A stretch of 64,000 nucleotides of DNA, taken from positions 14,064,213 through 14,128,212 of the forward strand of contig OZ234493.1 in the NCBI GenBank assembly GCA_965153455.1. The letters are read 5' to 3'. Position 1 is the first letter of the stretch. Each line of letters begins with the position of its first letter. The DNA is from Sphagnum compactum (lineage: Eukaryota). A model generated the notes under the pieces. The model saw only the letters and a program-made list of their open reading frames with translations, had not been told where the DNA came from and made no database searches. A program made the position numbers and the translations under genes. Below, in pieces: positions 28,594-58,116 of the stretch.

Positions 28594-31500
28594 ATGTGCA
28601 AAAGCTGCACACAGAGAGCAATGGTTCAATGTCCTCTGCCCCTTGCATTAGGCATGGTTCTCATGCTGATGCTGATGCTGCTTGTGTGCGAATTTAGGCC
28701 TTTGGGTGGTGTTCAAGCCCTCAGCACAGACATGGCAGCTCTTTTGGCATTCAAGTCAGCCGTACTGCCCCAAGGAAACCCTGATGATCTACTACCCAAT
28801 TGGGTGGGAACAGATTCTAGCCCATGCAGCTGGACAGGAGTGACATGCAACAGTGACAATGAAGTGGTCAGGCTCCAATTGTCAGAGATTGGATTGAATG
28901 GCACGATGCCAGCTCAGCTTTTCAGCATACTCGCTTTGGAGCATCTGGATTTGAGTTTAAATGCTCTCTCTGGCAGCATACCTCTAGACATTGGAAATCT
29001 GACCAGATTGAATTACCTGAATCTGACCACAAACCAGCTTTCTGGTCCCATCCCTTTGTCTCTCTTTGGCCTGTTCAATTTGCAAAGCCTGGATCTAAGT
29101 TATAACAGTATTTCAGGGGTGCTCTCTTCAGATATTGAACTTCTTGTCAACCTGCAGGAGTTGGTTCTGGGCAGCAACTCTTTCTCTGGTGTCATACCCC
29201 CAGAGATTGGAACACTTTCCATGTTACAGTATCTTGACCTTTCCAGCAATACTTTCTCTGGCACTTTGCCAGTGCAACTTGGGAACCTTGTGAACTTGCA
29301 ACACCTCGATTTGAGTAGCAATGCTCTCTCTGGTGACATCCCTGCACTTGAGACCATGTCAAACCTTGAGCTTGTAGATATAAGCAGCAACTTCTTCTCC
29401 GGTGTCATTTCTCCACAGGTGGCCACTCTTGCCAGTTTGACCTACCTTGACTTTAGCAACAACTCTCTTTCAGGGCCAATACCCTCTCAAATTTGGGGCA
29501 TGACATCCTTGCAAGAGCTTGATCTTGGGGCCAATGCCTTGACAGGCAGTCTTCCACGAGAGGTGGGTAACCTGATCAACTTGCAGAGTTTTTATCTTGG
29601 GGGCAGCCATCTTACAGGTTCCATCCCTGAAGAGATCTCCTTGCTAACGAGCTTGAGGAAACTTGACCTGGGTGGCAATTCTTTTGTTGGGTCCATTCCT
29701 GACTCTATTGGCAATTTGAGAAACCTTGTAACACTTAATCTGCCAAGCGCACATCTGAATGGCTCCATACCAGCTTCTCTTGGCAACTGCAGCAGTTTAC
29801 AGGTTGGAATGCTTATCTTTGAACTTTGCATTTGCCAAATTTCCTCAATTTTCCACCAATATACAGGTGGTCATTAGGACAATGCTCCTGTTTAAATACA
29901 GATTGAGAGACCAAATCAATTTGCAATTGATTTGTTGGCTTTCCCCCTGAACTGCACTAGTACAGTGTTGACTACAGAGAGGGCTGTGACTCACGGTCCA
30001 TTTGTCTGAAGGAATGCTAAAACCTGTCTGTGGTAGCATTTATGCATCATCTCCCTACACTTCCAAGATCACTGCAGCACCCCCTGATGTTGCTGTTGAT
30101 TCACGCAGCACCCACTCACCAAGGACAGCTAAGGACTGAACAGTCCTCAGAGGATTCTTCTGCTGTAGGAATAAGTTGCTTGTAGGTGGACACTCTTCCA
30201 GTCACTGCTTTTACATTGTCATTTTGATTGGTTTATGCAGGTCATAGATCTTGCTTTTAATGCCCTGACTGGACCTATTCCACCTCAGCTTGCTGCACTC
30301 CAAGATGTCATCTCTTTCTCGGTTGAGGGAAACATGCTCTCTGGCCCCATACCGGCCTGGTTTGGTAATTGGCAAAACTTGTCCAGCCTTCTGCTTTCAA
30401 CCAATGAACTTAGTGGCAGCATCCCTCCTGAGCTGGGGAACTGTTCCAAGCTTACAGATCTTGCTCTTGACAACAACCAGTTGACCGGCTCAATTCCACC
30501 AGAGCTTTGCAATGCTGCGATGCTGAGTCAGGTGACATTAAATGTAAACAATCTTACAGGGGACATAATTCATACCTTCCAGAGGTGTATGAGTCTAACG
30601 GAAATTGACTTGACTAGCAATCATGTGTCAGGACCTATACCATCATATCTGGCCAACCTTCCAAACCTTGTAATTCTATCCCTGGGGTCCAATAACTTCT
30701 CAGGAGATGTGCCCGATGCACTGTGGACCTCCCCATCATTGCTTGAGATCCTCTTGGATTCCAACAAGCTCACGGGGAGTCTGTCCCCACTTCTTGGAAA
30801 TGTCACAACATTGGAGTACCTGGTTCTTGCCAACAACAATTTTGAGGGACCTATTCCGCCTGAAATTGGGAAGCTTTCTAACTTGAATGTGTTCTCAGTT
30901 GCAAGCAACAACCTGAATGGTGAGATCCCGGTTGAGTTATGCAGCTGCATACGGCTCACATCTCTCAATCTTGGAAATAACTTGCTCATGGGTCCAATCC
31001 CTCAGCAAATTGGGCAGCTCATCAATCTGGATTACTTGGTTCTTTCACACAACAGTCTCACAGGGAATATTCCAAACACCATATGTGCTGACTTCCAGGT
31101 CAGTTGCCAGATTCACTTTCCTTCTTTGATGATACAGTGTCTCTGTTTGATTTATTCCTTGCAGGTGTGTGTGGTCCAAATAGAAACAGCATGCTCCTCT
31201 GTTCCATAATTGACAGGTTTTGTCATTTGTTGTCATATCTTGCAACCTTTTCATTCCTTACAATTTAATGAGGGGGGCCTTATTGAACAACCCACAATAT
31301 GGCAAATTTTAGTGCAGTGTTCATATGCACTAAACTAATCCTTTTGAACTGCATTGTTCCTTATCTGCAGCCCTTACTGGATATGAAAAAATTGGTTATT
31401 ATGCTAATGTATAATGAAATTGCCATTTTCTAGGTGATTGCCATACCCACTTCAAGCTTTGTGCAACATCATGGAACATTGGACTTGTCATGGAATAATC

Positions 31501-33497
31501 TCAGCAGTAGTATTCCACCAGAGATGGGTGAGTGCTCCGTTCTTGTGGAGTTGCTGTTGACAGGCAATCAACTGACAGGTTCAATCCCTCCTGAACTTGC
31601 ACGGCTTACAAACTTGACCACTTTAGATCTTTCATGCAATCTTCTAAATGGATCTATCCCAGCTGAGCTTGGAGAAGTGCACAAGCTCCAAGCGTTGAAT
31701 TTGGCCTACAATAGGCTCACTGGACCAATCCCTCCACAACTAGGTGACATCACCAGCCTGACAAAGCTCAACTTGAATGGAAATATGCTTTCCGGATCAA
31801 TTCCTATAACTCTAGGCAATCTGATGGGTCTGTCTCACTTGGATCTCAGCAACAATCAGCTCAGTGGGGATTTACCATCCTCCTTGGCCAACCTGGACTC
31901 TATTGTGGGGTTGAATCTGGAGAAGAATCAACTAACAGGTGACATTGCTGGGTTGCTGTCTGAAAGTTCAGTCTGGCATCAAGCACAAACTATCAACCTG
32001 AGCCACAATACATTTTCTGGAGTGATTCCAGCCACTATTGGCAATGCCACAGGCCTATCATATTTGGATCTTGGTTGTAATCAGTTTTCTGGGTCTGTTC
32101 CAAATCAGCTTGCAGGCCTGGCACAGCTCAATTACTTGGATCTTTCAAACAACCACCTCAGTGGGATGTTCCCTCCTGAGTTGTGTGATCTTAGATACCT
32201 GACTTTCCTGAATGTGTCATACAATGAACTGGAAGGACAAATCCCTTCAACAGGCATGTGTGCAAAGTTGGGTACCTCTTCATTCATTGCTGATCCTGGA
32301 CTTTGTGGAGACGAACTCAGGATAGAGTGCACAAGGAAAATGGTTCCTACCAGCTTGGTGAGTACAGGGGCAATATCAGGTATTGCAATTGGTTGCACCA
32401 TTGTGTTTCTCAGTATGCTTTTTGTAGTGCTGAGGTGGCGCTTGCTGAGGAGGGAGGCAATGGTGAAAACCAAGGATCTGGAAGAGATGAAGTTCAGCAT
32501 GATGCTTGACACTAGCACATGTTTGACCATAGGAAAATCAAAGGAGCCCTTAAGTATCAATGTAGCCATGTTTGAGCAACCACTGCTGCGGCTTACTCTT
32601 GCTGACATACTGCTTGCTACCAACAACTTCTGCAAGGCTAATATCATAGGAGATGGAGGATTTGGAACAGTTTATAAGGCCATTTTACCGGATGGCAAAA
32701 CTGTGGCCATAAAAAAACTTGGTGCTGCACGAACACAAGGCAACCGAGAGTTCCTTGCAGAAATGGAAACCTTGGGAAAGGTGAAGCACCGAAATTTGGT
32801 GCCATTACTTGGATACTGCTCGTTTGGTGAGGAAAAGCTGCTTGTGTATGAGTACATGGTGAATGGAAGCCTTGACCTGTGGCTTCGGAACCGTGCAGAT
32901 GCAGTTGAGGTTCTGGATTGGAGCAAACGATTCAAGATTGCCATGGGGTCTGCAAGAGGTCTCAACTTCCTTCACCATGGTTTCATACCCCACATCATCC
33001 ACAGGGATGTGAAGACCAGTAACATTTTGCTGGATGCTGATTTTGAACCCCGAGTAGCAGACTTTGGTCTTGCACGACTCATAAGTGCATATGAGACCCA
33101 TGTGAGCACTGATATTGCAGGTACATTTGGGTACATCCCTCCTGAATATGGACAAAGTTGGCGATCCACCACTCGTGGAGATGTGTACAGCTACGGTGTG
33201 ATACTCCTAGAACTGCTCACTGGCAAGGAGCCAACAGGAGTGGACTTCAAGGACATTGAAGGAGGTAATCTGGTTGGATGGGTGCGGCAGATGATCAAGC
33301 AGAGAGCAGCCCAAGAGACACTTGATGCCACTGTCTCCAATGGGCCATGGAAGATGAGCATGCTAAAAGTACTGCATATCGCCAATCTGTGTACAGCTGA
33401 AGACCCACTCATGCGACCAACAATGCTCCAGGTAGTGAAGTACCTCAAGGACGTTGAAGCTGCACCCCAACTGCCAATTTTTGATAGTCGGCAATAA
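28594..33497 (+). CDS. EMS1: LRR receptor-like kinase of the EMS1/EXS (LRR-X) clade; exons 28594-29802, 30241-31098, 31434-33497 (1376 aa from the first ATG)
   Basis: Signal peptide, N-cap PCSWTGVTC, many plant LRRs, island-like segment FQVIAIPTSSFVQHHGTLDLSWN and a TM helix. The juxtamembrane KEPLSINVAMFEQPLLRLTLADIL and the kinase motifs (GDGGFG, HRDVK, DFG, PPEYGQSWRSTTRGDVYSYG) are EMS1-typical. Both introns are GT-AG, phase 0, and keep the frame. Confidence 0.93.
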
Positions 33498-36045: not shown

Positions 36046-37191
36046 CTAATAGAGGTGAGTAGGCCACCGAGGATGTGCCACAGCATGTAAGGGTTGTGCT
36101 CTTGGAGGACTTAGTCCAAATTTGTCAGACATGTCAAGAGTGTGAGGTTCTTGTTGATTGGGAAGAGACCAATCAAAGCTATGGACCAGGTGTGCTAAGG
36201 CAAGTTGAATTACTAATTCTGCTAATGGTTGTCCTGGACAGGCCCGCCTTCCACTACCAAATGGCAAGAGTTCAAAGCTACGTCCATTCCAATCAATCTC
36301 AGGATGTTCCAAGAAACGCTCAGGGTCAAATTCTAAGGGTCTCTCCCAAACGTCAGAGTTGCGGCCCATTGCCCACAGGTTCACAATCACTTGAGTCTTA
36401 GGTGGCAGAGAGTAACCAGCAACTTGACAAAACTCGAGTGACATGTGAGGAAGTAGGAAGACAGCAGCAGGATGGAAACGAAATGTTTCTTTTATTATAG
36501 CTTGGAGATAAGGAAGGTGTCGGAGATCTGATTCCTCAACCACATGATCAGTTCCAACAACCGTATCCAACTCATCCTGAGCACGCCTCATAAGCTTTGG
36601 ATTTCATAGGAGCTCTGCCATTGCCCATTGTAAGGTGACTGACGTGGTGTCTGTACCAGCTGCCAATAGATCCTGTTAAAGCACAATCACATGTATGAAG
36701 ATAGCTATATCATGTTAGATTAAATTATAAGCTAGGATGGCTATAAGAAAAAGATATCAACTACAAAACATACAACAATTTTTCAAAGCTCATTGTTCAC
36801 GATTAACTTTGGGTGGATGAAATGCAGAAATTGTTTCCCATACATAGAGAACAGCCTCAATTGTGTCATCGGAAACTTTCCCAGACCCATCATCCAAACG
36901 CTCAGAAAGTAGCACATCAATGAAGTCTTTAGGTTTATCATTGTATGTTGAATCTTGATGATCAGTTGTTGCATTGTCCCGTCTATGCTCATCAAGTATT
37001 CCTTGAGCAAATTGTTTCATCCTTTTGCGTAAGTCATGCAAGGGAGCTTCAACTCCCTGAAGTTTGCTCACCCACCACAAGGAAGGCACATAGTCACCAA
37101 TAATCACAGTGGCAAATGCCTCAAAGATACCATCGACAATTGTTTGACATGACGAGCTCCCTCCTCACCTTTTTCATCTGCTCCAAAGTAC
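36046..37191 (-). pseudogene. Cytochrome P450 (A-type/CYP71 clan) pseudogene; exons 37191-36844 and 36672-36046, first exon not found
   Basis: Motifs AGTDT, ETFR, PERF and FGSGRRACPG (heme Cys). In-frame TGA at 36606-36604 (ELL*NPK) and a 1-bp frameshift near 37140. No N-terminal exon was recognised upstream. Confidence 0.88.
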
Positions 37192-41178: not shown

Positions 41179-41943
41179 TTGTAATTTCCAGCATTTTTTC
41201 AAAACCACTAAGAAAAACAAGGAAAAATGTGCACCCAAAATCATTAATAGAAATGGCACAGATATGATAATGTCACACTGGTGGGTGGGTTTGACAAACA
41301 AGTTGTCAAAATTGGAGTGATGTTTGGACAGAAGCATCAATTCTAGACATCGGGTCTCTCACCAGATCCTCTCCTCATCCCACAGCATACAGATTCCACT
41401 AGTCCTGCACAATAGTGAGATATTAGTCAGGCTAAATAATTGTCATTGAAATTGAGGAAGAGATGGAAAGAAATGTTATGATCCTGAAATTATTGTGACT
41501 GATCAAAGGAGGTTCTAGTGGAGAAAGAGAAGAGATAAGAGCTCTGTTGGGGCAGCAGATGATTGAAGAAAACAAAGGAAAAAAAGAAGACAGTGCCATG
41601 TGTCTCAAGAGACATGAAGTAAACTCACTTGCCGAAAGCAACTCAACTTGGGCCAGAGTGAATTAACAGCCACCAATGCACCAGTTGGCCGTTCTGTCCA
41701 CTGGATGGGTTGCGTTTTTTCATTCGGCGCCGGATGGGGTTCGTGACAGTCCATTTCTTTTTGCTGCTGACCATTGTACTTTTTTTTTTTGGTTCTTGCT
41801 CGTTTTTCCCTGGACCTGACCTCACACATAGCTACCCTCCTCACTTTTCTACCCTGTTCACTTTTCTACCTAGCTACTGTACTCACCACCTACCCTACTA
41901 ACCTAACTACCCTATTAATTACATACCCTACCCTAAAAACCCT

Positions 41944-42212
41944 ACCCTAAATGCAATACCTGCATTTTGGGCCATTTCGAAAGTACGCATGTGGGGTTCA
42001 AGCTTTCTTTATACAAAGATCCTACCCTAAATGCAATACCTGCATTTTGGGCCATTTCGAAAGTACGCATGTGGGGTTCAAGCTTTCTTTATACAAATAT
42101 CCTACCCTAAATGCAATACCTACATTTTGGGCCATCGAAAAAGTACGCATGTGGGGTTTAATCATTTCTTATACAAAGATCATACCCTAAATGCAATACT
42201 TACATTTTGGGT
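41944..42212. repeat. Tandem ~80-bp array (4 units); related arrays at 43365-43720, 44424-44615 and 49332-49522
   Basis: Unit TACCCTAAATGCAATACCTGCATTTTGGGCCATTTCGAAAGTACGCATGTGGGGTT... Confidence 0.92.
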
Positions 42213-42840
42213 CACACCACTAACCAAGCTACTGTACTAACCACCTTCTCTACTAACCTAGCTACTCTATTAATTACATACCCTACTAACTTAACCATTA
42301 GGTTTAGGGTTGAGACACATAAATTAATTGATAAGTTTTCCATAAATGTATAGTAATTAATTTAAAGTAAGCTAAATTTGGGGGGAAATTTTTAGGGTTT
42401 ACACACATGTGAAGTAATACAATTGCATTTTATACCTTCTTCAAAAAGAGTGGAAAAATTAGGTTGGAAAAATCACACAAAGGTAAAAGACATATCTTCT
42501 TTTTTGGTTTTGTACGAAATTTATTTGATTATTTTTAAAGATTAACGTATTTTCTTTCAGTTAATAAATATTTATAATTTAAAACCTTTGAATTTTGGTT
42601 TCTAATTTTTTTCCTATGTTCTTTTAAATTTGTTTATTTTGCATTATATGATTTGTATAGTTTGTATAGTTTTTTGCGTTTAGGGCATATATCACTAAAT
42701 CTTCTTTTTGTTAGGGTTTGTATAATTAGGGTTGTAATAAGCCTTATGTCAAAATATCATTTGGATTTGTAAGGTTATGTTTTATGATTTAATGTATAGG
42801 AATTTGGTTCATATATTTCAAAACTGATATTTTACTTTAA

Positions 42841-44109
42841 TAAATGTCTCAATTACTAATCAAGATTGTTGCCATTGGCACTAAATTTTTTGTTTTAGAA
42901 TCAATTTTGTATGGAGGAAACCATAGCCCAAATTCTTTGAACAGCATGTATTCAACACACACATGAAGTCTAATATGGCACAAAGCTTATTATTGTTTCC
43001 AAGTAATAAACACAAAAAGTGTGAAATGCAAAAACACAAGGATAATGATAATATTAGTGTTAAATGCAGATATTATAATTAGGCCCCAAAATCCCAGTTG
43101 GTAAAAGTAAATACAAGTGCAAGTAATACCCCAAAATTCCAGTTGGTAAAAGTAAGTACGGGTGTAGGTATTGCAACGAAACCCCAAAATTCCAGTTGGT
43201 AGAGGTAAGTATAAGTTTGGGTATTTCAAGTCGAAATGAAAAAACAAGCCTAAATGCAATACCCACGTTTCAAAAAAACCCATCTAAATGGTTTGGATAC
43301 CTTTAAGTGAAGACCTAGCCCTAAACACAATATGCACATGCAAAATCATTTTGAAATAACCCAACCCTAAATGCAATACCTGCAATTTGGGCCACTCCGA
43401 AAGGACGCATGTAGGGTTTAAGCTTTCTTTATATGAAGATCCTACCCCAAATGCAATACCTGCAATTTGGGCCATTCCGAAAGGACGCATGTAGGGTTTA
43501 AGCTTCTTTATATGAAGATCCTACCCTAAATGCAATACCTGCATTTTGGGCCACACAAAAAATACGCATGTGGGGTTTAAGCATCTTTATACGAAAATCC
43601 TACCCTAAATGCAATACCTGCATTTTGGGCCACTCCGAAAGGACGCATGTAGGGTTTAAGCTTTCTTTATATGAAGATCCTACCCTAAATGCAATACCTG
43701 CATTTTGGGGCACACAAAAATAGTTAGTTAATTTCAAATTAATATGCTAACAAAGGTGTGTATAAAGGTTAGGGTTGTTGATTAGGAATTCCATGATTTT
43801 TACTTCTTTTCATGAATTTGAAAAGAGGTTGTATTGTTTGTGGATCAAATAATACAATGACAATTGTGATCAAGCTTATCTTGGTGTAGGAATTTTTCAT
43901 GAAAAAACTAAACTTACAATCTATAACATGGAATAATTATCTTAAATAGTGATTTCAATAACTTATTAAAACAAAAATATACTTAAGTTAATTAATCAAA
44001 TATCAAATTAATCAATCTGATTTTTAGATCCAACTTTTTATTATCCAAGTAAATAAAATTAAGCCAAATGATTAGTTGATTATTCCAAATAAATAAATGA
44101 TTATCTAAT
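42841..44109. repeat. Long internal direct repeat; second copy at 48799-49913
   Basis: Both copies begin TAAATGT(C/T)TCAATTACTAATCAAGATTGTTGCCATT, end AAATAAATGATTATCTAAT, and are colinear throughout. Confidence 0.9.
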
Positions 44110-46105
44110 GTTTAGGGCATATATCATTAAGACTTTTTTTTGTTAGGGTTTGGTAAAAATAAGTACAAGTGCAAGTATTGAAATTATGCCCCAAAATTCC
44201 AGTTGGTAAAAGTAAGTACGGGTGTAGGTATTGCAACGAAACCCCAAAATTCTAGTTGGTAAAGGTAAGTATAAGTTTGGGTATTTCAAGTTGAAATGAA
44301 AAAACAAACCTAAATGTAATACCCACGTTTCAAAAAAACCCATTTAAATGGTTTGGATACCCTTAAGTGAAGACCTAGCCCTAAACACAATATGCAGACG
44401 CAAAGTCACTTTGAAAAAACCTTACCCTAAATGCAATACCTGCATTTCGGGCCATTTCGAAAGTACGCATGTGGGTTTAAGCATCTTTATACGAAGATCT
44501 TACCCTAAATGCAATACCTGCATTTAGGGTCACTCCGAAAGTATGCATGTGGGGTTTAGGGTTCTTTATATGAAGATCCCACTCTAAATGCAATACCTGC
44601 ATTTGGGGTCATTCCGAATAGCTACCCTGCTCACTTTCCTACCCTCATAAGTATTGCACCAACCTTAGTACCTTATTTATTATCCCCTACTGACACAGCT
44701 ACCCTAATAACTAATTATCCTACTGACCTAGCTATTGTACTAACCACCTACCCTACTAACCTAATTACTCTATTAATTACATACCCTACTAACTTAACCA
44801 TTAGGTTTAGGGTTGAGACACATAAATTAATTAATAAGTTTTTCACAAATGTATAGTAATTAATCTAAAGTAGGCTAAATTTGGGGGGAAAATTTTAGGG
44901 TTTACACATATGTGAAGTAATACAATTGCATTCTATATCTTCTTCAAAAAGAGTGGAAAAAATTAAGTTGGAGAGATCACACAAAGGTAAGAGACATATC
45001 TTCTCTTTTGGTTTTGTATGAAATTTATTTGATTGTTTTTAAAGATTAACGTATTTTGCATTATATAATTTGTATAGTTTGTATAGTTTTTTGGGTTTAG
45101 GACATATATCACTAAGACTTTTTTTTTTAGGGTTTGTATAATTAGGGTTGTAATAAGGCTTATGGCAAAATATCATTTGGATTTTTAAGGTTATGCTTTA
45201 TTATTTAGTGTATAAAAATTTGGTTCATATATTTTAGAACTTAAGGTTTATACTCTAAATTTTGCTCATTGTATTGGATTTTGATCTTTTCACTTGTTTA
45301 AATCTATACCATAATTTGAATTTCCTTTGTTTCCATATGTTCCATAATTCCTAGAGTTTAATATTTTCTAACCCATTTTTGTACGAGTTATGATTTTTTA
45401 GGGTTGCGTTTTCAATTGGGACTTTAAACTTTGGTGGACCGTTGTCATCTTTTATTCTTAAAGGTATGCATTTGTCTCTTGTTACTTCTTTTGTTTTTTT
45501 GTTTATATTTTCATAATCCAAACTCTTTTCATTTCCTAGTTGTTGGATATAGAAAGGGCATCAAGTTTCATTAAGTATACAAGCATAGATAAAGGTTTTA
45601 TACTTTTACATGGATATTTCATATTCAATATTTCTTTGTAGTTTATTTTTTCATACCCATATGCGAATAATGCATTGACTACCCACAACCAGTGTGGGTT
45701 TTATGGCTTAAGGTAGGTATTGCATTTTGCACCTCTCAAACAGTGTGCATTAACTATCATTATGTGGGTATTGCTACATGGGGTTTTCAAACATTATGGG
45801 TTTAAGGTACAATACGGGTATTGCATATGAGAAAATTTTCGATGAGGGGAGGTTTAATAGCTCAATGTGGGTATTGCCAAAGTTTGTTTTAGTATATGGG
45901 TTCATAATGCAAGTATTGTACGTTATGTACATTGGAATAGTATTTTTTTATATCATGATATGGGTGTTGTAATGGGAATTCCAAGTCACAACATTGATTT
46001 TAAAGGAGCCATGTATGTATTGCATTTTGGGTTTTTGTTCAATGATGAATGCTTAGAGTATTATAAATTCTCTTGATGCAGGAATTTGTCCTACTTCTTT
46101 CAATC

Positions 46106-48801
46106 ATGCCAAGGATTCCAAAGTCCCATTCCATTCATGTCCAAAACCCCACCAAGTCCCCTTTCTCAAACAAAGATTTGGTGTGGACATCTGGGATACG
46201 CCATGGAGGGCAAAATAAAGTGACCATTCAATTTGCTTATGTTCCATATGCTCGCATCTCCGAATTCTTGGAAGGTGAACGAGGGGATACGAGCACCCCT
46301 GTGGAATGGAGTGTTTACAAAAACTTTCCAAGCCAAACGGATGTCAAGCGACCAACTATCAAAAACCACCTCGGGCATACATGGTAAACATTTATGGCAT
46401 TAACCTTTTTAATTTCTTTACTTCATATACCAAAGATGTAATAATTTACGTTTTGAAAGTTTTTTGGTTTAGGTATCAATGCGTATATGGACCAGAGGAC
46501 TATTGAGAAAATTCAACCCACATTCGATCTATTAAACGAGGATGCCTAGCGTCATTCTCAATCAAACGTCTATACACACGACCTGATGTGGCTGAGATCA
46601 CAATTTATCATAAGGCCCATACACGAATTGATGGGTCATTCGCACATGGTGAGCATGACCCAGAGTCCATTTCTCGTATGTCTCGTTATGCTCCACGCAT
46701 GTCACAAGCATTGAAAGACCACATATGGGCCCAACTAAGCTTAGGTTATACGACCAATCAAATATATGACAAGCATAAAGCAATTTGGTGGGAACGTGTG
46801 AATGCGGGTCAAAGCATGACACGAGATGATTTTATTCGGCTTCAAGACATTGCATATTTAGATCGGAAACATAAGAAAGGGAGTTGGCGTTTACACACTA
46901 ACCCTGCAATTTCAATTCGGTCTTGGGCTCTCCAACATCCAGAAGATGTGTTCTTTTTCCAAGATGTTGGTGAAATGAACGGAACTCAAGTCCCATTCAC
47001 CATAGGTATTCAAACACCAACTCAATGTGAGTCCATGCTATCATATGGTCACAATGGTGCCATTTCTATGGATGCAACATTTGGCACAAATGACATGAAA
47101 TTCCATCTATTCACCTTGATGGGATTTGATGATCATCGCACGGGTGTCCCTTTAGCCTGGATCATTACAAGTAGGCAAACAGTGCAAGATTTGATCGAAT
47201 GGTTGAAACCATTAAAAGAGAAGATGTTATCACACATGCCGCATTGGAAACCATCATGTTTTCTTGTTGATGATGCACCTCAAGAATTGAAGGCATTACG
47301 GTTAGTTCTATACCTAGTATCGACTTTGTGTTTATTTCCTTAAATGTTTTTTAATATCTTTCATAAAATTCTTGATTACTTCAAATGCATTTTATGTTGT
47401 ACTAACCCCATCCACTCATGGAGATTTTATTGCATATGTGTCCTTATTAGGGTCGTATGGGGTATGGACAAGGTTCCCATCTACCTTTGTTGTTGGCATG
47501 TTCTCAAAGCATGGCGCCTACGTGGTATTGAAAAAATCAAAGATGTGGAAGTGCGGGGTGGAATCCTCCAAGATCTTCATGATGTGATGTACATGTCCAT
47601 CAATCATGGAGAAACAATTGATGACTTCAAAGAGCGTGGGAGGGTTGCTGTGAGAGAAAGCCGTCATAAACATAGGCCTGGTGATGCGTGGACAAACTAT
47701 TTCTGGACTTATTACCATCAATTTGGTAAGTGATAATATTTATCATGGTTCAACATTCAAAATTATTTTGTATAATGTTATTCATCCTTATGTATTGTGT
47801 TTATGTTTGTAGAATTATGGATGGTGGGTGTTCGAAGAGTGCCCCATTCCAACCAAGACACCCAAGCGAGCATTGAATCATATCATGGTGCATTGAAACG
47901 TTGGCTTGCTCTTGACACAAAAGGCCTTAGAGGGCGTAGGATTGACTGGTTGGTGTGGCGATTAACAACAACCGTTGCACACCACTACATGCACACATTG
48001 GAAATGAAAAAGAGGGGTTTCATAAAAAACAAGGTTATGGAGGCCATTATTACACGAAGTGTGGAAAAGGCAACCCTTATTCCACTCAGCCATGTGTACC
48101 AACCAACCCTTGAGAGTGATGGAGCTTGGGCCGTACGGAGCCAACACCTTCCCAATGTTATTTACACGGTGAAATTCTCATTCACCGAAATGTTTTGTTG
48201 CACATGCGAATGGGCATTGCGAGGGAACATGTGTAAACACCAAATTAAGGTCATTCTCACATGCACAGACATTTCTCAAAAGGATATCATTCATTACTGT
48301 GGAACATGGTATGGATCACATCGTGGAGGGTTGGGTCACATGTTTGCAGACCCGCAACATATTCCAGATGATATGGAGTCCAGTGATGATGACGAAGATG
48401 ATCATCTTGAAGGTGATGATGGGATCATGAAATTTGATGGGCTCATGAACATGGAGCAAAATGATCTCCCTATGGGTGCCATTGTAGGGTTTAATGAGAC
48501 AATAAATTCATCAACCCCAATGGAAAGGGCTCTTACACAATTGGTCACTACAATGCAAGAGATCACAAATGAATGTAAAGAAGGCGATGTGACACTTTGT
48601 GAACATGCCACCTCACATATGAGAGTATTGGCATGTAATATTCGTAACATACGCCTCACAAAAGCAAATGCAATTTCACACCCAGGATTGGTGTTACATC
48701 GTGTAGAAGATGGATTGGGAAATAGTGTCAAACGGTTCAAAGATTGGCATGAAACAATGCTCAATCACACAAATGTACGTACTAAACGATGTCATGAATA
48801 A
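46106..48801 (+). pseudogene. MULE transposase (N-terminal Zn-binding domain, DDE core, SWIM finger); exons 46106-46383, 46473-47300, 47451-47725, 47813-48801 (790 codons) with one premature TGA
   Basis: Motifs MDATFGTN, FLVDDAPQE, LCCWH, SIESYH and SWIM CTCEWALRGNMCKH. Three GT-AG introns keep the frame. TGA at 46504-46506 (GPEDY*ENS). Confidence 0.88.
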
Positions 48802-51749
48802 ATGTTTCAATTACTAATCAAGATTGTTGCCATTAGCACTAAAACTTTTCTTTTAGAATCAATTTTGTATGGAGGAAATCATACCCCAAATTATTTGAAC
48901 ATCATGTATTCAACACACACATGAAGTCTAATATGGCACAAAGGTTATTATTGTTTCCAAGTAATAAGCACAAAAAGTGTGAAATGCAAAAACACAAGGA
49001 TAATGATAATATTAGTGTTAGATGCAGGTATTGTAACTAGGCCCCAAAATCCCAGTTGGTAAAAGTAAGTACAATTGCAAGTATTGCAATCATGCCCCAA
49101 AATTCCAATTTGTAAAGGTAAGTACGGATGTAGGTATTGCAATGAAACCCCAACATTCCACTTAGTAGAGGTAAGTATAAGTTCAGGTATTGCAAGTTTA
49201 AATGAAAAACAAGCCTAAATGCAATACCCACACGTTTAAAAAAAAAACCCATTTAAATGGTTTGGATACCCTTAAGTGAAGACCTAGCCTTAAACACAAT
49301 ATGCAGACGCAAAGTCACTTTGAAAAAACCTTACCCTAAATGCAATACCTGCATTTTGGGCCATTTCGAAAGTACCCATGTGGGTTTAAGCATCTTTATA
49401 TGAAGATCCTACCCTAAATGCAATACCTGCACTTTGGGTCACACAAAAAATATGCATGTGGGGTTTAAGCCTTCTTTAAATGAAGATCCTACCCTAAATG
49501 CAATACCTGCATTTTGGGTCATTCTAAAATAATTAGTTAATTTCAAAATCATATGCTAACAAAGGTGTGTATGGAGGTTGGGGTTGTTGATTAGGAATCC
49601 ATGATTCTTATTTTTTTTCATGAATTTTAAAAGAGGTTCTATTGTTTGTGGAACAAATAGTACAATGACAATTGTGATCAAGCTTATTTTAGTGTAAGAA
49701 ATTTTCATGAAAGAGTTGAACTTGCAATCTATAATATGGAATAATTATCTTAAATAGTGATTCCAATAACTTATTAAAACAAAAATATACTAAAGTTAGT
49801 TAATCAAATATCAAATTAATTAATCTGATTAAATCCAACATTTTATTTTCAAGTAAATAAATTTAAGCCAAATGATTAATTAATTATATTAAATAAATAA
49901 ATGATTATCTAATTCTTCATAATTAATCATTTAAATTATCTAAAATAATGGTCTATTAATTATTTAATTATATGACAAATTTTATTGATAATTCATTAAT
50001 TATCATAAATATTTTATATTAAATTGGCCGAAATGTTTTAGGGTTTAGACATATGTGAAACAATACAATTTCATTATATATCTTCCTAAAAGAGATTGGG
50101 AAAGTTAGGTTGGAGTTATCACACAAAGGTAAAAAACAAACCTTATGTGAAAACCCAACCCTAAATGCAATACAAAGTTTGTCAAGATCAAAAAATAAAA
50201 AGTTCAAGCTTAAATATTTTTCAACGATGTTCATATTTTTTTTCCCCTTTTAAAGTTGTATATTCATACTAAAAACATAAATATAAAGTCTTTAATTTAA
50301 CAAGATTTTAAATTATGTTTAAAAAAAATTCAAAGCACGTAATTTTCTACTTTCTTTTTTTCTGTTTCACATAATAATAAAAATGATCTCTCCCATATAT
50401 TAATCCTATGTTTAATTGAAATTTTAATTTATACTTTTCTGATATATAGTAAATAATTTCTTGGTTAAAATATTCATATAGTGGGTCAAAAATATTTTAT
50501 ATTTTATAGATATATAACACAAGTCCTTATGTAAACTTTATTTTTTATGATGTATAATATTGGTTTAAATATTGGTCCAAATATATTGTTATTTATAACA
50601 CTTAATATATAAATAATGATATTATGGAATTATACTGTTGATCCAAATCAATACATATAATATTTTAGGGTTTAGGGTTGGGTTTTCATAGGTTAGGGTT
50701 GGGTAAACCCTAAAACCCTAATCCCTACAAATATAGCTATTTGTTAAGTAACCTAATTAACTACCTGATAGGCTACCTACTTAATATAGGCCTATTATGT
50801 AATTTATTCATTAATGTAAGCTTTCTAAATTAATATCTTAAATGGTCTATGTAGGTATTGAAGGTGATTGAATGTATTAAGTAAACCCACTAGTCATATA
50901 GGTAATATACTAGCCTAGGCGACGTAAGCCTAATAAGTATTTATGATAGTTTAATGTCTAATCCTTCTTGTGTTATAACATTTTAAATTTGAACTAAAAG
51001 AATTTATCAAAAAGAAAGCACATTTTTCCATATAATTGTTATAAGTATATACTATTGGAGTATGATTCAAATTTAGAGTTTGGGAAACCCTAAATTAATT
51101 AACAATTTTTTTACAAATTAATAGTAAATAAAATAAATCTACGGTGCATTATAGGGGGAATTTTATATGTAAAAAAATGCAATACATATTTTTAAAGAAA
51201 TTGAAATAGATCAGCTTGGAGATTAACAAATGGTAAAAGACATACCTTCTTTTGTGTTTTGTCACAAATTTTATTTAATTATTAAACATTATGGCTAAAT
51301 TTACAAATGGTGAAAGTAAGTATGTGTGTGGATATTGCAAAATTATATGAAACCTTAACCCTAAATGCAATAGCCATATTCATGTTTATTTGAAAATAAC
51401 CCATAGGTGAATAAGGTAAAACCTACAATGAAAGGGCAACCTTAAATGTAATACCCACATGTAAGGTCACTTTGAAATACCCAATATGTAGTTTGGGTGC
51501 GCCTTTGAATGAAGACCAAGGCCTAGATAAAATACCTACATGCAAGATCATATTGAAATAATACATAGGTGATTGAAGGAAACCATATGTGAAGACCCTA
51601 AACCCTCAATGCAATACTCGCATGTAATGTCATTTCAAAAGTGGCCTCGGTACCAAAATTATGTCTTTTTATATACCCAAAATTAATTATTATTCTAAAT
51701 TAATTTTATTACAAAATGTAAGTTTCATAATGAATGTAAAAACCAGCAC

Positions 51750-51992
51750 CTATTATGGGACCTACATGCGAGTATTGCAAGAGATGGAAAAAAACCAGGG
51801 GTTATAAGGGAACAATATGCGGGTATTGCAAGGAATGTTTAAAAAACCCAGTGGCTATTATGGGACCTATATGCGGGTATTGCAAGGAATGTTTATAAAA
51901 CCTAGTGGCTATTATGGGACCTATATGCGGGTATTGCAACGAATGCAAAATGCATATGGCTATTTTGGGCCTATATGTGGGTATTGCATTTT
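51750..51992. repeat. Tandem ~55-bp repeats carrying GGTATTGCA
   Basis: CTATTATGGGACCTATATGCGGGTATTGCAA repeated about 5 times. Confidence 0.85.
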
Positions 51993-52392
51993 TGAAAATG
52001 GAGTTCATAATAGAGAATGATGTAGGTATTATATGTTTAAAATGTGTGGATTGTTTTAAAAGTCTTCAGGTGATGTGAGTCGTATTATATTAGATATAAG
52101 TATTGCATAATGTTCATTTTGATCTTTGGTTTGATTCTTACATCTCCAGTACTAAAAAAATTATGACAAAGAAAACATATATGATTAACCATATACCCAT
52201 CAACAAGTGTGAATAGAAGGTACTATTATATTGATAAAAGATGTACAAAAATGGGTGCATGAAAAATTACTAAAGAACCTATTGAAAAAAAAGTGTTGGT
52301 TCTCTATAACATATCAAAGGATTGAAGTTCAAAATTGGGTAGTCCAAAAATGAAAGGGTTACAAAACCTAATTAATTATATAAAGTGAAACC

Positions 52393-54208
52393 CTAACACA
52401 TATCACTATCTACAATCCCGTGTTTAGCGCAGTATGCAGCTGCTGCATTTGCAGCCTTTGCTGTATGACGAACAATGTACAAATGCCGGCGTTGCATCTC
52501 TACTTGAATTGCATTTGCAACAAACTGGGCCTTTGTCTGGTCCTGTACCCTGTAAACACCCAAAAATCACAAAATTAACCCTAAACACACCTTGGATGAA
52601 ATACAATAAAAAACAATAAACATTATTTATTATTGTTTCTTACCTTCCATGAATCATTCTAGATTCATGAAAATCCAAAACATCTCCCAGCTGTTTTTTC
52701 CGAGATGTTTTACTGGACTCTCGCTCCCAGTTCTTCACATCCCATGTCGTCTTTAATTTTCGTGCATATGCACAACGGGTGGATCGGATCGTCCCATGTA
52801 AGTCTTCATCCTTCTCCATTCGTACAATTGCATCTGGCGCCACACTGCCCACGCCCCAAGCATTGAGGCCCAAAACCTTCAACAATTGTTCTTGGGTTAA
52901 TCTGACCAAAGCAGGTTTTGGCAATGGTGGATACTGTTTTGCAACAGCCACCAGGTGATTCCACTCGCGCTCTGCTTTGGCACGAGCACGACTAGCAACT
53001 TTCTGGTCATTCCTCCTTTGAACAGCCATCGCATTTCCCAAAATGCGAGCGTTCATCTTGGCATGGTCCTGATGTTGAAGACCTCCTGTAGCAGTTGAAG
53101 GCTTCCCAGGTTTGGACTTTTCTGCCACCAAACCATGCGCCTCCTTCAGATGCTTGGTCAATAGCCATTTTGCACAATATGCCACAGTGCAATTGCCGAC
53201 TCTGCACTTCCATTTGGACCCAACCTTTGTCCATTCCTTATCCTTCCGAGCCAAATTAGCTGGACAAACAAGTGCAAGTGGTTGAGAAGCTTGCTCAGTT
53301 TCCAGTTCCAAACCTAAACCCAAAAAATGAAAGTTCAAAAAACAGAATGCAGGTATTGCAAAACATTAAATCACAAAATCACATACTACTCCTATAAACA
53401 TGAACTGTTTTAAGGTATTGCAGTAAAAAAAATTTGACAAAAAAATTCCCACACCTTCCAACAAATGATGGAAGGTGCGGAGATAATTAAACTTAAAGAA
53501 AACTTGTACAATGTTATTAATCTGTAATTAATCTAATGTCCTATCTTCTAATGTCCACAAATTCTAAAACAATCTATACCAATGCTATCCTTGTGTTTCA
53601 ATTTTGATAGAGCACAATTTTTCTCACCAATTTCCTGATCTGATGCAACAACACTTCCATCAGCAATTACTACATCTGATGCAGCAACACTTCGGTCATC
53701 AATTGCTTCATTTAATGTAGCGACATTTTGTTGGGCAGTTGCTGCATTTGATGCAGCAACATTTTGCTGGGCAGTTGCTGCATTTGATGCAGCAACATTT
53801 TGCTCGGCACCTCCCGCATTTGATGTAGCAACATTTTGCTCGGCACCTCCCGCATTTGATGCAGCAACATTTTGCTCGGCACCTCCCGCATTTGATGCAG
53901 CAACATTTTGCTCGGCACCTCCCACATTTGATGCAGCAACATTTTGCTGCATAACTTCCACATTTGATGCAGCAACATTGTGCTGAAGAATTGCCGCATC
54001 TAATGCAGCAACAAGTGGCTCAGCACTTGCCTCATCTCCTCCAGCAACATATGAAAGAAGAATCGGCTCATCTGAAACAGCAACATTTGGCAAAAGACTT
54101 GCCTCATTTGCTGCAGCATAATCTTGCCTCATTTGCTGCAGCATAATCTTGCCTCTTGCCTTCCAACTCACCACCACCGCTCTTCCTTAATCTTCTTCCC
54201 CTACCCAT
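52393..54208 (-). CDS. MULE accessory gene: unknown protein with 12-aa repeats and a C2H2 zinc finger; exons 54208-53628, 53313-52644, 52549-52393 (about 460 aa if a 25-bp duplication is removed)
   Basis: GT-AG introns (phase 1 and phase 2) join three open frames. Contains (NVAASNAGGAEQ)n and CRVGNCTVAYCAKWLLTKHLKEAH; the last exon reads VQDQTKAQFV...GIVDSDMC*. A 25-bp tandem duplication near the start shifts the first ATG out of frame. Confidence 0.72.
53745..53985 (-). repeat. 36-bp coding tandem repeat (12-aa unit)
   Basis: GCATTTGATGCAGCAACATTTTGCTCGGCACCTCCC repeated about 7 times with variation. Confidence 0.9.
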
Positions 54209-54289
54209 TACAACCTCCAACCCTAAACCAAAAACCACCAGTTTGTTAATTCTAATGAACTAAAGCATACGCAACAATAAAGAAAAAAA

Positions 54290-55800
54290 AAAACAATTGC
54301 CACCATAGAGAAAGGTGACGACATTGCTGCCGTCACCTTCTTCGCAGCAAAACCATAAAAGAAAGGCGGAGGACGCCACTTCCTTATAGCAAAGCCATCG
54401 AAGAAGGTGCTGGCAGCTATCGTCATCTTCTTCTTCAATATAAATTCTCCTACGTTGAAAAACTACAAGAAGAAGGCGCCTTCTTTTGCTGCGCTGCAGC
54501 GCAGCAAAACCAAAAGAGGAAGGTGACGGTAGATGTCGTTGCCTTCGTCTGTAGCACAGCAGCAAGAAAAAAAAAAAGGCAACGGCAGCGTGGCTGCCGT
54601 CGCCTTCTTCACTGCGCTGCAATGCTGCAGTGCAGCGCAGCAACAAAAAAAAACCAATGAGCCTTCTTTGTGGAGCTGCGTTGCAGCGCAGCTCCGCAGT
54701 ACGGAGAAGGAGGCGACGGCAGCTGCCGTCGCTTTCTTCGTGGAGCTGCGCTACAACGCGGCTCTGCAGCAGACAGAAGAAGGCGACGGTAGCTGCCGTC
54801 GCCTTCTTCTTCCTTTTTTTTTTACAACACGAAGAAGAAGAAGGCGCGGCAGCTGCCGTCGCCTTCTTCTTCCTTTCTTTTTTACAACACGAAGAAGAAG
54901 AAGGCGCGGCAGCTGCCGTCGCCTTCTTCTTTTTCTTTTTTTTTCAACACGAAGAAGAAGAAGGCGACGGCAGCTGACGTCGCCTTCTTCGTGGAGCTAC
55001 GCTGCGTTGCAGCGCAGCTCCACAGCAGGAAGAAGAAGGCGACGGCAGCTGCCGTCGCCTTCTTCTTCCTTTTTTTTTTGCAACACGAAGAAGAAGAAGG
55101 CGACGGCAGCTGCCATCGCCTTCTTCTTTTTTTTTTTTTTTACAACACGAAGAAGAAGAAGGCAACGGGGCAGCTGCCGTCGCCTTCTTCGTCGAGCTAC
55201 GCTGCGCTGCAGCGCAGCTCCACAGCAGGAAGAAGAAGGCGACGGCAACTGCCGTCGCCTTCTTCTTCCTTTTTTTTTGGCAACACGAAGAAGAAGAAGC
55301 TAGCTGCCGTCGCCTTCTTTGTGGAGCTACGCTGCGCTGCAGCGGAGCTCCACAGCAGGAAGAAGAAGGCGACGGCAGCTGCCGTCGCCTTCTTCGTGGA
55401 GCTACGCTGCGCTGCAGCGCAGCTCCACAGCAGGAAGAAGAAGGCGACGGCAGCTACCATCGCCTTCTTCTTCCTTTTTTATTTTGCAACACGAAGAAGA
55501 AGAAGAAGAAGGCGACGGCAGCTGCCGTCGCCTTCTTCTTCTTCTTTTTTTTGCAACACGAAGACGAAGAAGGCGACGGCAGTTGCAGCGCAGCTCCACA
55601 GCAGGAAGAAGAAGGCGACAGCTGCTGTCGCCTTCTTCTTCCTTTTTTATTTTGCAACACGAAGAAGAAGAAGGCGACGGCAGCTGCCGTCGCCTTCTTC
55701 TTCCTCTTTTTCTTTTTTCTTGCAACACAAAGAAGAAGAAGGCGACAGCAGCAACGCTGCCATCGCCCTCTTCTTCTTTGTTTTTCTTGCAACACAAAGA
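54290..55800. repeat. Array of about 20 GC-rich palindromes
   Basis: The perfect palindrome GAAGAAGGCGACGGCAGCTGCCGTCGCCTTCTTC and variants alternate with T-tract/CAACAC spacers or with GTGGAGCTACGCTGCGCTGCAGCGCAGCTCCAC. Confidence 0.93.
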
Positions 55801-56595
55801 GCTGCATTGTGAAGCTGCGCTGCGTATCTTGTGCATCGCAGCTCTACAAACAAACAAACAAACAAACAAAAGGAAGATGCTTACCTGGGTCTCGCGTGGG
55901 TCCCGCTCCGGCTCTAGGCTCCCGTGCTCCAAGCTCTCGCTCCCGCTCCAGGCTCCCCTGCTCCAAGCTCGCTCCCGCTCAACGTCTCTGGAGCTCTGGC
56001 GATGGAGTGAGGGGGAGGGGTTGGTAGGTGGTAGGTAAGAGGGGGGGAGGTAGGTGGTAGGCAGGAGGGGGGAAGGCAGGAGGGGGGAGGTAGATGGTAG
56101 GTAGGAGGGGGGAGGTATGTCGTAGGTAGGAGGGAAAATTTTGGGGCAGGTAGGAGGGAAAATTTTGGGGTAGAGAAGAGGTGAAAAAAAAAAATATTTG
56201 GGCAGTCCGGATGTGGTTTTGGTTCATCCCCAAAACGGGTTGAACGGGCTCATCCTCAACTGGTGCATTGGTGGCTGCTAATTCACTCAAGCCCTCAACT
56301 TGGAAACACTCAAATGACCATAGGTTAACATTTCATGAGGGCTATGGACAGTGTGCAGATTCCAAGTGGGTGTCAGTTGGAGTTTCTTATTAGGGCACCA
56401 TAACTTCAGAGCTTTCTTCATATTTACTCCAAATTTGTTTCCCAACTTCTGGAATTTTGCATCAATGTTTGGTGGTGATGTTTTCTTCTAAGTATCTTTT
56501 CCTCTACCCGAAATTCAATGGTTGTATTGTAACATGACCATGTGGAAGATTCTTGGAGTTTTTTTGTGGTATAACAAAATGTGAGGATAGAGATT

Positions 56596-57041: not shown

Positions 57042-58116
57042 GAGTGGCAGTTCAAGCATATTAGATAGAAGAAAGCAGCATTGCTTTGAATTTTAATAGG
57101 GTTCAATGTGATTCAATTCTACTTGCTTTGCTTTGCGGTTGAAAGATTTTGAAAGCTTGAAAACCAGATCTTTTTAAATTTGAAAAAAGAGCTAGAGATC
57201 CAAACTTGCATATTATATGAGTTTTCTAAGAATTTTTACAGGGTTTGTTTGTGCATGATTCTCATGGCTACCAGGATTGTTGTTTTTGTTGTGTTGGTGG
57301 TATGGTGAATCAAGGACAGAAATTCCCGTGCCTGTTTTCAGGTACAGGAAGCGAGAGTGGAACACTAGCTGTAAGTGTGTTGCAATATCACATAATTCCA
57401 AACAGGGTGTATACCTATGATCAATTGAAACAACTGGCAGATACAGCTGATTTTATGGCGACAACGGCATTTGCTGGGCAAACGCTTAATGTGTCAACGG
57501 GAACCTTCAAACTCAATGGCTATGCAAAAATTGTCAAACCGGATATATATCAGTCATATGCACGCCAAAAGATCCATGGCATTGACTCCATGCTCATTCC
57601 TCCTGGCATGCAGGTGATCAAACTAGAATTGCCTCAAAGTTTTGCATTGTAAAGAATTCTGAGCATTCTCAGAATTGGCACTATAAGTATTGAGAAGCCT
57701 GAAACTCATACCTTTAATTCATGCTCATGTTGTACTTGTTTGCGGGAATGAGTTTTTTCCACACATGTAAGTAGCCCTCTAAGATGCCAATCAGTTGACT
57801 TAGCTGGGACAACAAAAAGCATTTTGCACGTTCATCAAGTGGATTAGAAAACCAAACAAATTAGGGTTCAATGTTGGCAGCAATTTCTATAATTCTCTCG
57901 CCCATGGAGAGGCCATGAAGATGGAAACTGTGTAAATAATCTACTAATGTCGCATATAAATTTTATAATCTACATAATCTACTAGAGCTTCACAAATTAT
58001 GTAGTGTATATTTATTTGAATTTGTTCAATTTTTGCAGCTTGGGTGTGGACCATATGCTCCAATTGTAAAGCCTGTCACCGAAACCCAAAGTGCTTCTGA
58101 TCCAGCTTGTAAATGA
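56596..58116 (+). CDS. Fasciclin (FAS1)-domain protein (FLA-like); exons about 56596 (or 56704)-56901, 57320 (or 57242)-57613, 58039-58116
   Basis: FAS1 H1 TFFAPANSAL, YH motif VLQYHIIP and H2 IHGIDSMLIP. Phase-0 GT-AG junctions and a hydrophobic signal-like MTVWVMLLAMAYSG. The start codon and exon-2 acceptor are uncertain. Confidence 0.72.
56996..57038. repeat. (CT)n microsatellite in the fasciclin gene intron
   Basis: About 21 CT units. Confidence 0.95.

What the first reader, a model, noticed from the sequence alone, without database searches (positions are those of the whole stretch)
54223..55884. About 20 CpG-rich palindromes packed into the predicted 5' UTR intron of the accessory gene
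On the minus strand there is a strong donor (CAG|GTAAGC, GT at 55884) and an acceptor (TTTAG|G, exon from 54222) just before the ATG at 54208. The interval between them is an array of 34-bp palindromes (GAAGAAGGCGACGGCAG|CTGCCGTCGCCTTCTTC) plus a second type (core GCTGCGCTGCAGCGCAGC). A transcript would fold into serial hairpins and the DNA could form cruciforms. CpGs are largely preserved in an otherwise AT-rich element. Possible roles (inference): small-RNA source or decoy, dimeric protein-binding sites, or a methylation-resistant island.
Basis: partly seen in the sequence, partly recalled or inferred. Interest (0 to 1): 0.72.

Follow-up and report, generated by a model that had tools for sequence, protein, structure and literature searches.

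The report
Palindrome array in moss transposon intron
A peat-moss jumping gene keeps a fast-changing run of short fold-back repeats inside the predicted first intron of its second gene; sister lineages fill the same slot with different fold-back repeats or with copied host DNA, and the repeats look like self-amplifying filler rather than a protected regulatory island.

Summary
The array is real: about 20 palindromes of two types in a 1,662-nt predicted 5'-UTR intron of the accessory zinc-finger gene of a 14.6-kb Sphagnum Mutator-like element (this copy is dead). It is a family trait, not an artefact. Donor and acceptor motifs are kept in 31 copies whose interiors differ by subfamily, which supports the intron; RNA reads did not show the splice. 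What subfamilies share is self-complementarity, not CpG (o/e 0.24-1.18). 'Methylation-resistant island' fails: CG/CHG sites decay as fast as in the exons. No compensation or G-U bias supports an RNA structure. One sister subfamily carries host-gene fragments in this intron (19 of 21 copies; four donors verified); the window's type never does (0 of 18). Best reading (0.55): a tolerated, hairpin-driven hypervariable slot. A VANC-like binding array is the main rival (0.2), but a different motif fits that role better and is absent here. The scan noted this MULE family, its accessory gene and captures before on other copies; this array had no look-alike note.

The parts
41642..41650 (.). Left 9-bp target-site duplication (CTCAACTTG)
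41651..56293 (.). Whole Mutator-like element, 14,643 bp, short imperfect TIRs (about 37 bp alike)
46077..48801 (+). MULE transposase gene (start approximate, exons inferred); TGA at 46504-46506 where 6 of 6 other covered copies read CGA
   Evidence: Pfam MULE E 6e-9
52393..52545 (-). Predicted last coding exon of the accessory gene (boundary approximate, inferred from splice motifs)
   Evidence: inference
52644..53313 (-). Accessory gene exon 3: one C-x4-C-x12-H-x4-H finger plus helical region, no family match
53628..54222 (-). Accessory gene exon 2: ATG at 54208, 36-bp (12-aa) tandem repeats
54098..54155 (-). 25-nt tandem duplication private to this copy; shifts the frame, stop after codon 34
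54223..55884 (-). Predicted 5'-UTR intron (GT..AG), 1,662 nt
54312..55781 (.). Palindrome array: 34-bp type (10 with up to 2 mismatches), GCTGCGCTGCAGCGCAGC type (7), length variants, T-rich spacers
55885..56180 (-). Predicted non-coding exon 1 and promoter (GGAGC-rich and CCTAC-rich repeats); start of transcription unknown
   Evidence: no reads on the exon-1 bin
56294..56302 (.). Right 9-bp target-site duplication (CTCAACTTG)

Best explanation
The array is a self-amplifying hairpin minisatellite sitting in a 5'-UTR intron of the MULE's accessory gene, a slot where the element tolerates almost any sequence because it is spliced out ahead of the ATG. Shown: the slot's ends are conserved, its interior expands, contracts and is replaced between subfamilies, stays self-complementary, and decays like methylated transposon DNA. 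Inferred: short palindromes fold back when single-stranded during replication or the gap repair that follows excision, causing slippage and template switches; that duplicates units, deletes parts of them, and in one sister subfamily lets host DNA be copied in (Pack-MULE capture). Unit variants that stay palindromic are the ones that multiplied. No specific job for the array is needed on this reading.
For: Intron length 1,201-1,969 nt among 8 clade-A copies whose exon 3 differs by a few percent. Four array types between the same splice motifs: hairpin cover A 0.46-0.70, C 0.27-0.45, D 0.81-0.85, array-rich B 0.25-0.61, shuffles 0-0.14 (31 copies). D's unit is the A unit with its whole centre gone; the A unit is the 23-nt-interior unit with a centred 5-nt loss. 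Deletion classes fall at random (11 of 34 centred, 8.3 expected), yet the two that multiplied (97 and 141 units) are both centred. A lineage with nearly no hairpins left (cover 0.06-0.09) has 7 copies at 99-100% identity. CG and CHG transitions in the alignable part of the array equal those in exons 3-4 (private changes 16/602 vs 12/612, p 0.45; 26/702 vs 26/972, p 0.25). No excess of compensated pairs (15 vs 13.1 expected, 145 units) and no G-U bias. Host inserts in 19 of 21 B-type introns, donors at 92-97% free of element sequence.
Against: Palindromy has persisted across subfamilies, so selection for it is not excluded; only two or three independent amplifications underlie the 'centred variants multiply' point. 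The decay tests use inserted, mostly dead copies and cannot see selection or demethylation in active ones. Captures are absent from the window's array type (0 of 18) and from D (0 of 8), so hairpins alone do not explain capture. The hairpin-poor lineage may be moved in trans. Words such as AGCGCAGC are shared by all four types at 3-8 per kb. Splicing was not observed; 5 sense polyA reads ran unspliced into the distal intron of a C-type copy. No breakage or slippage was measured.
Confidence: 0.55

Rival explanations
1. VANC-like docking array: the accessory protein (or the transposase) binds the palindromes as a dimer and keeps its own promoter region active; arrays turn over to escape RNA-directed silencing.
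For: VANC21 binds tandem motifs in introns and other non-coding parts of VANDAL MULEs, the arrays diverge fast, and VANC proteins carry variable tandem peptide repeats (PMC5735166 passages; PMC10398659 passages). Here exon 2 has subfamily-specific 12-aa repeats, arrays track clades, and GCTGCA/AGCGCAGC words are common to all types. CG decay is low next door in TIRs plus exon 1 (4/424 vs 16/602, p 0.065).
Against: No DUF1985/DUF287 or any family hit in 66 homologues. The finger's presumed recognition helix is nearly invariant across clades with different arrays. L018 and L116 join an A-type exon 3 to a B-type intron, though L018's exon 2 is B-type too. A non-palindromic motif (TGCAATAC) has 37 sites in the other non-coding parts and none in this intron in 31 copies; it fits the VANC pattern better. 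The array shows no reduced CG decay.
Confidence: 0.2
2. RNA-level function: the intron's serial hairpins yield small RNAs, act as a dsRNA decoy, or shorten the distance between splice sites.
For: Very stable fold (z -47.5); stems of 17-25 bp and longer composite stems; sense polyA reads reach the distal intron. Feature look-alikes of the protein include dsRNA-binding-type C2H2 clusters, but at 0.85, a lead only.
Against: On the RNA strand pair-breaking G>A changes outnumber wobble-keeping C>T (78 vs 58 among distinct clade-A variants, 76 vs 37 in clade C); compensated pairs at chance level. All 97 Rfam matches lie below their gathering scores. Any DNA palindrome folds, so the energy is not independent evidence. 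Copies with almost no hairpins exist.
Confidence: 0.15
3. Methylation-resistant CpG island.
For: CpG o/e 1.0-1.2 in A and C arrays.
Against: CG and CHG transitions are 10- to 20-fold above A/T transitions in the distal array and equal to or above the exon rates; D arrays have o/e 0.24-0.29.
Confidence: 0.04
4. Assembly artefact or an unrelated nested repeat.
For: Repeat arrays are prone to misassembly; exact unit counts per copy may be off.
Against: Related arrays with different unit counts on many contigs; 20 of 20 further palindrome loci fetched lie in this MULE family; A-, D- and B-like arrays recur in independent metagenome contigs; two public runs that hold the family cover all 30 bins.
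Confidence: 0.02

Closest known systems
VANDAL MULEs of Arabidopsis with VANC and their tandem target arrays (PMC5735166, PMC10398659; passages read)
   Same: MULE with an accessory gene that has variable tandem peptide repeats; fast-diverging, subfamily-specific repeat arrays in non-coding parts including introns.
   Different: Accessory protein has no DUF1985/DUF287; the units are palindromes ('palindrom' has 0 hits in PMC5735166); no sign of lowered CG decay over the array; binding untested.
Pack-MULEs and gap-filling / template-switch capture (PMC8277862 passages; bioRxiv 10.1101/777037 abstract)
   Same: Sister subfamily B carries several host-gene fragments from different chromosomes, two of them 5' regions in sense orientation.
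   Different: Here the fragments sit inside one predicted intron, between repeat blocks, leaving the accessory reading frame intact in most copies; the window's own subfamily has no capture.
Maize MuDR (mudrA plus mudrB; PMC6446971 passage)
   Same: Two-gene Mutator element, 9-bp TSD, convergent second gene (convergence of MuDR genes recalled).
   Different: Short imperfect TIRs; second gene of no known family; large internal repeat arrays.
Short GC-rich palindromic repeats in organelle introns, e.g. Volvox carteri (PMC2670323, search listing only), and human PATRRs (PMC3197554 passages)
   Same: Palindromes that multiply in non-coding DNA, and that change by deletions at their centre.
   Different: Nuclear, confined to one intron of one transposon family, arranged head to tail; units far shorter than PATRRs.

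Membership tests
Mutator-like element (MULE) | MULE-type DDE transposase | tested here: met
   PF10551 E 6.3e-9 at 46507-47340; broken by a stop in this copy
Mutator-like element (MULE) | TIRs and 8-11 bp TSD | tested here: met
   TIRs at 41651 and 56293, TSD CTCAACTTG
Spliceosomal 5'-UTR intron | Conserved GT donor and AG acceptor ahead of a conserved ATG | tested here: met
   31 copies with both motifs around unlike interiors; ATG 28 of 29, phase 27 of 29
Spliceosomal 5'-UTR intron | Spliced reads across the junction | tested here: inconclusive
   96 polyA reads from a related organism, none on exon 1, no joint listed; 5 unspliced sense reads in the distal intron
VANC/VANDAL anti-silencing system | VANC protein with DUF1985 and DUF287 | tested here: not met
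   no such Pfam hit in 66 homologues at E 0.1 (domains named in PMC5735166); exons 2 and 4 were not in that alignment, exon 2 had no hit
VANC/VANDAL anti-silencing system | Tandem, fast-diverging motif arrays in non-coding regions | tested here: met
VANC/VANDAL anti-silencing system | Accessory protein binds the array and lowers methylation there | not testable with these tools
   indirect test negative: CG/CHG decay not reduced in inserted copies
Pack-MULE | Host-gene fragments between MULE TIRs with identifiable donors | tested here: not met
   not met for the window copy and its array type (0 of 18); met for sister subfamily B (19 of 21; four donors)
Methylation-resistant CpG island | CpG sites protected from deamination | tested here: not met
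Known microRNA or structured RNA family | Rfam match at the gathering score | tested here: not met
   0 of 97 listed matches reach it

The most novel reading that the evidence does not exclude
The intron is an evolved 'exchangeable cassette' of the transposon: fixed splice sites fence off a slot kept self-complementary on purpose, so that it is rewritten quickly and can take in host DNA without harming the accessory protein. Its spliced-out hairpin RNA, or the host pieces embedded in it, would then change which small RNAs hit the element's promoter region, a built-in way to stay ahead of RNA-directed silencing, possibly read by the element's own zinc-finger protein.
Probability: 0.15. Interest if true: 0.75.

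Novelty: new variant of a known kind. Interest (0 to 1): 0.43.

Why it matters
If the best reading holds, this family is an unusually clear natural series for how repeat arrays inside transposons are born and replaced, and for where Pack-MULE capture happens: one slot with fixed ends, four array types, many copies, and donors still identifiable. How Pack-MULEs acquire host DNA is described as unresolved in PMC8277862 (passages). If the arrays prove functional, it would be a palindrome-based counterpart of the VANDAL system in a moss. The window copy itself is a dead relic.

Tried and rejected
Methylation resistance: rejected. Selection on RNA stems by wobble bias or compensation: not found; rows for the second palindrome type are confounded by flank variants and were not used. 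Preferential central deletion as the mutational source of symmetry: not supported at class level (11 of 34 vs 8.3; classes that fit no single deletion were left out of the count). Palindromes as a genome-wide dispersed repeat: rejected for the 20 loci fetched; only the first 50 of 85 sites were listed. Naming the protein: no Pfam hit, no PDB sequence hit, AlphaFold model of exon 3 weak (pLDDT 59) with no Foldseek match at E 0.001, no longer homologue, 380 profile hits without names, Atlas hits under 0.9. RNA: run X1 holds a small share and may contain DNA; X4 was read to about 12%, and DNA-type contigs crowded the joint table (203 rows not shown), so absence of the splice joint proves nothing. 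Candidate donors C9:6836979 (96%) and C19:2058493 (77%) were not fetched. L040 and L046 lacked the 5' module and L019 was fetched on the wrong side; L013, L016, L017 were missed by the donor pattern although one search shows their donor. The transposase exon chain failed on a wrong pattern and was not used. Literature searches gave no paper on this array; a term look-up in review PMC13317346 returned nothing even for 'intron', so it carries no weight. No supplements were opened.

Full report
Observation. The 1,662-nt interval has 117 CpG, o/e 1.09, and holds 26 of the window's 84 hairpin centres. Ten 34-mers and seven second-type cores lie within two mismatches of their consensus. Hairpins cover 63% of it against 0% in two shuffles, and the minus strand folds with z -47.5.

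Setting. The interval lies in a 14,643-bp Mutator-like element (41651-56293, TSD CTCAACTTG; Pfam MULE) in a 382-Mb genome. The one homologue of the accessory protein with a species name is from Sphagnum balticum, so the host is taken to be a peat moss. The family is large (801 candidates for the accessory exon, 150 scored). This copy is dead: the transposase has TGA where 6 of 6 covered copies have CGA, and a private 25-nt duplication shifts exon 2 of the accessory gene.

Is it an intron? Of 61 loci examined, 54 showed the right TIR and 31 gave both splice motifs. The donor AG|GTAA(G/A) and acceptor TTTA(G)|GGTT..ATG are kept although the interiors are unalike. The ATG is kept in 28 of 29 copies and the phase of exon 2 in 27 of 29; the S. 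balticum model starts at the same codon. Reads do not settle it: 96 polyA reads from a related organism put the accessory gene on the minus strand and the transposase on the plus strand (assuming the usual stranded protocol), none fell on the exon-1 bin, no splice joint was listed, and 5 sense reads ran into the distal intron and match C-type genomic sequence.

Is it a family trait? The exact 34-mer has 41 sites in the genome and the spacer-tolerant form 85, with 0 for the reversed controls. All 20 further loci fetched lie in this MULE family. Similar arrays stand upstream of the accessory gene in metagenome contigs. An exon-3 tree of 41 rows gives three supported clades: A (window) and C carry the GAAGGCGACGGCAGC palindromes, B a different array built from GAGCTC and GGAGCTGCAGCTCC words. 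A fourth type, D, in elements that lack exon 3, has GAAGAAGGCCTTCTTC units. Hairpin cover is 0.46-0.70 (A, 8 copies), 0.27-0.45 (C, 6), 0.81-0.85 (D, 6), 0.25-0.61 (B, 7) and 0.06-0.09 in 4 B copies filled with captured DNA; CpG o/e is about 1.0-1.2 in A and C, 0.6-0.8 in B, 0.24-0.29 in D. Self-complementarity is the shared trait; CpG is not.

Methylation. Against the majority base of 12 clade-A copies, the alignable distal array shows transitions at 3.8% of CG and 7.3% of CHG site-copies against 0.3% at A/T; exon 3 shows 4.0% and 5.4%, the transposase 2.3% and 2.1%. Counting private changes only, the array does not differ from exons 3-4 (CG 16/602 vs 12/612, p 0.45; CHG 26/702 vs 26/972, p 0.25). 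This is the footprint expected of methylated plant transposon DNA (established knowledge; methylation was not measured). The array core gives higher rates still but aligns poorly and was left out of the tests.

RNA structure. In 145 clade-A units, compensated pairs number 15 against 13.1 expected; 55 clade-C units give 8 against 11.0. On the RNA strand G>A exceeds C>T, the reverse of what tolerance of G-U pairs would give. These are decaying copies, so the test is blind to selection in active ancestors. No Rfam match reaches its gathering score (0 of 97).

How the array changes. Over 80 introns or intron parts, the interior between the arms AAGAAGG and CCTTCTT is mostly 0, 18 or 23 nt long (140, 102 and 75 units). 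Modelled as single deletions of the 23-nt form, classes are not preferentially centred (11 of 34, 8.3 expected), but the two that multiplied are. So asymmetric variants arise and stay rare, palindromic ones spread. That fits hairpin-driven amplification or selection; it rests on two or three events. Central deletions are known for long human palindromes (PMC3197554 passages).

Capture. Inserts of at least 250 nt without array words are in 19 of 21 B-type introns, 0 of 18 A/C and 0 of 8 D (47 introns); the B copies are related, so the 19 reflect about six fragments. Four donors were fetched: L099, L100 (PHD-finger gene, two pieces, antisense), L101 (5' of a CCCH-finger gene) and L115 (5' of a weak cytidylyltransferase-like hit); they match the inserts at 92-97% and have no match to the element. 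One hairpin-poor, capture-filled lineage has 7 copies at 99-100%. This matches Pack-MULE capture by template switching (PMC8277862 passages), here confined to a slot that leaves the protein intact. It is not shown for the window's array type.

Protein. Exon 3 encodes one C2H2-like finger and helices with no family, structure or fold match. The residues at the presumed DNA-reading positions are nearly invariant across clades (position assignment recalled from classical fingers). Two copies pair an A-type exon 3 with a B-type intron. The motif TGCAATAC has 37 sites in the element's other non-coding parts, 1 in the 49 kb outside, and none in this intron in 31 copies. If the element has a VANC-like system (PMC5735166 passages; PMC10398659 passages), that motif is the likelier target.

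Verdict. Real, family-wide, and more interesting as a series than as a single locus. Best reading 0.55: hairpin-driven hypervariable filler in a tolerant intron; VANC-like docking 0.2; RNA role 0.15; protected island 0.04; artefact 0.02. Four literature searches found no description of it, within an open-access library only. Earlier notes of this scan cover the family, its accessory gene, the other motif and a capture but a sequence look-up for this array found none. New variant of a known kind; interest 0.43.

Noticed in passing
window 41931-46100, 48801-52392, 53315-53625: 37 copies of TGCAATAC, many inside 79-80-bp tandem repeats with a small hairpin; 1 site in the rest of the window; none in coding exons or intron 1. 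Better candidate for a protein-binding array.
   Followed up: partly
window 41651-41930 and 55885-56293: TIRs plus exon 1 show low CG decay among clade-A copies (4 of 424 private changes vs 16 of 602 in the array, p 0.065); could be a CG-hypomethylated end, not significant.
   Followed up: partly
L018 and L116: Recombinant elements: clade-A exon 3 with clade-B intron (and, in L018, clade-B exon 2), on two chromosomes.
   Followed up: partly
L026, L030 versus L018, L029, L032, L033: Two B lineages carry different, colinear antisense pieces of the same PHD-finger host gene (L100 5192-5656 and 3837-4309), suggesting one larger capture trimmed differently.
   Followed up: partly
   Followed up: partly
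L058, L059, L063, L067: Internally deleted derivatives whose breakpoint falls in or at the array; L063 is only 1.6 kb. Chosen by having the array, so biased.
   Followed up: no
L122, L126: Metagenome copies with a mixed array (A-type ends, GAAGAGCTCGGAGCTGCGC core) that looks intermediate between A and B.
   Followed up: no
window 53603-54118: 36-bp repeats encoding acidic 12-aa units; number and sequence vary by subfamily, exon length 124-581 nt.
   Followed up: partly
window 42800-45250 and 48800-50100: Internal duplications of the non-coding region on both sides of the transposase; five clade-A copies lack most or all of the transposase, joined at about 45241 to 48797.
   Followed up: no
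window 28555-33497, 36046-37164, 57230-57652: Host genes nearby: LRR receptor-like kinase (+), cytochrome P450 (-), fasciclin-domain fragment (+).
   Followed up: no
window 5498-5889: Another CpG-richer degenerate repeat block (20-25-nt units), unrelated to this element.
   Followed up: no
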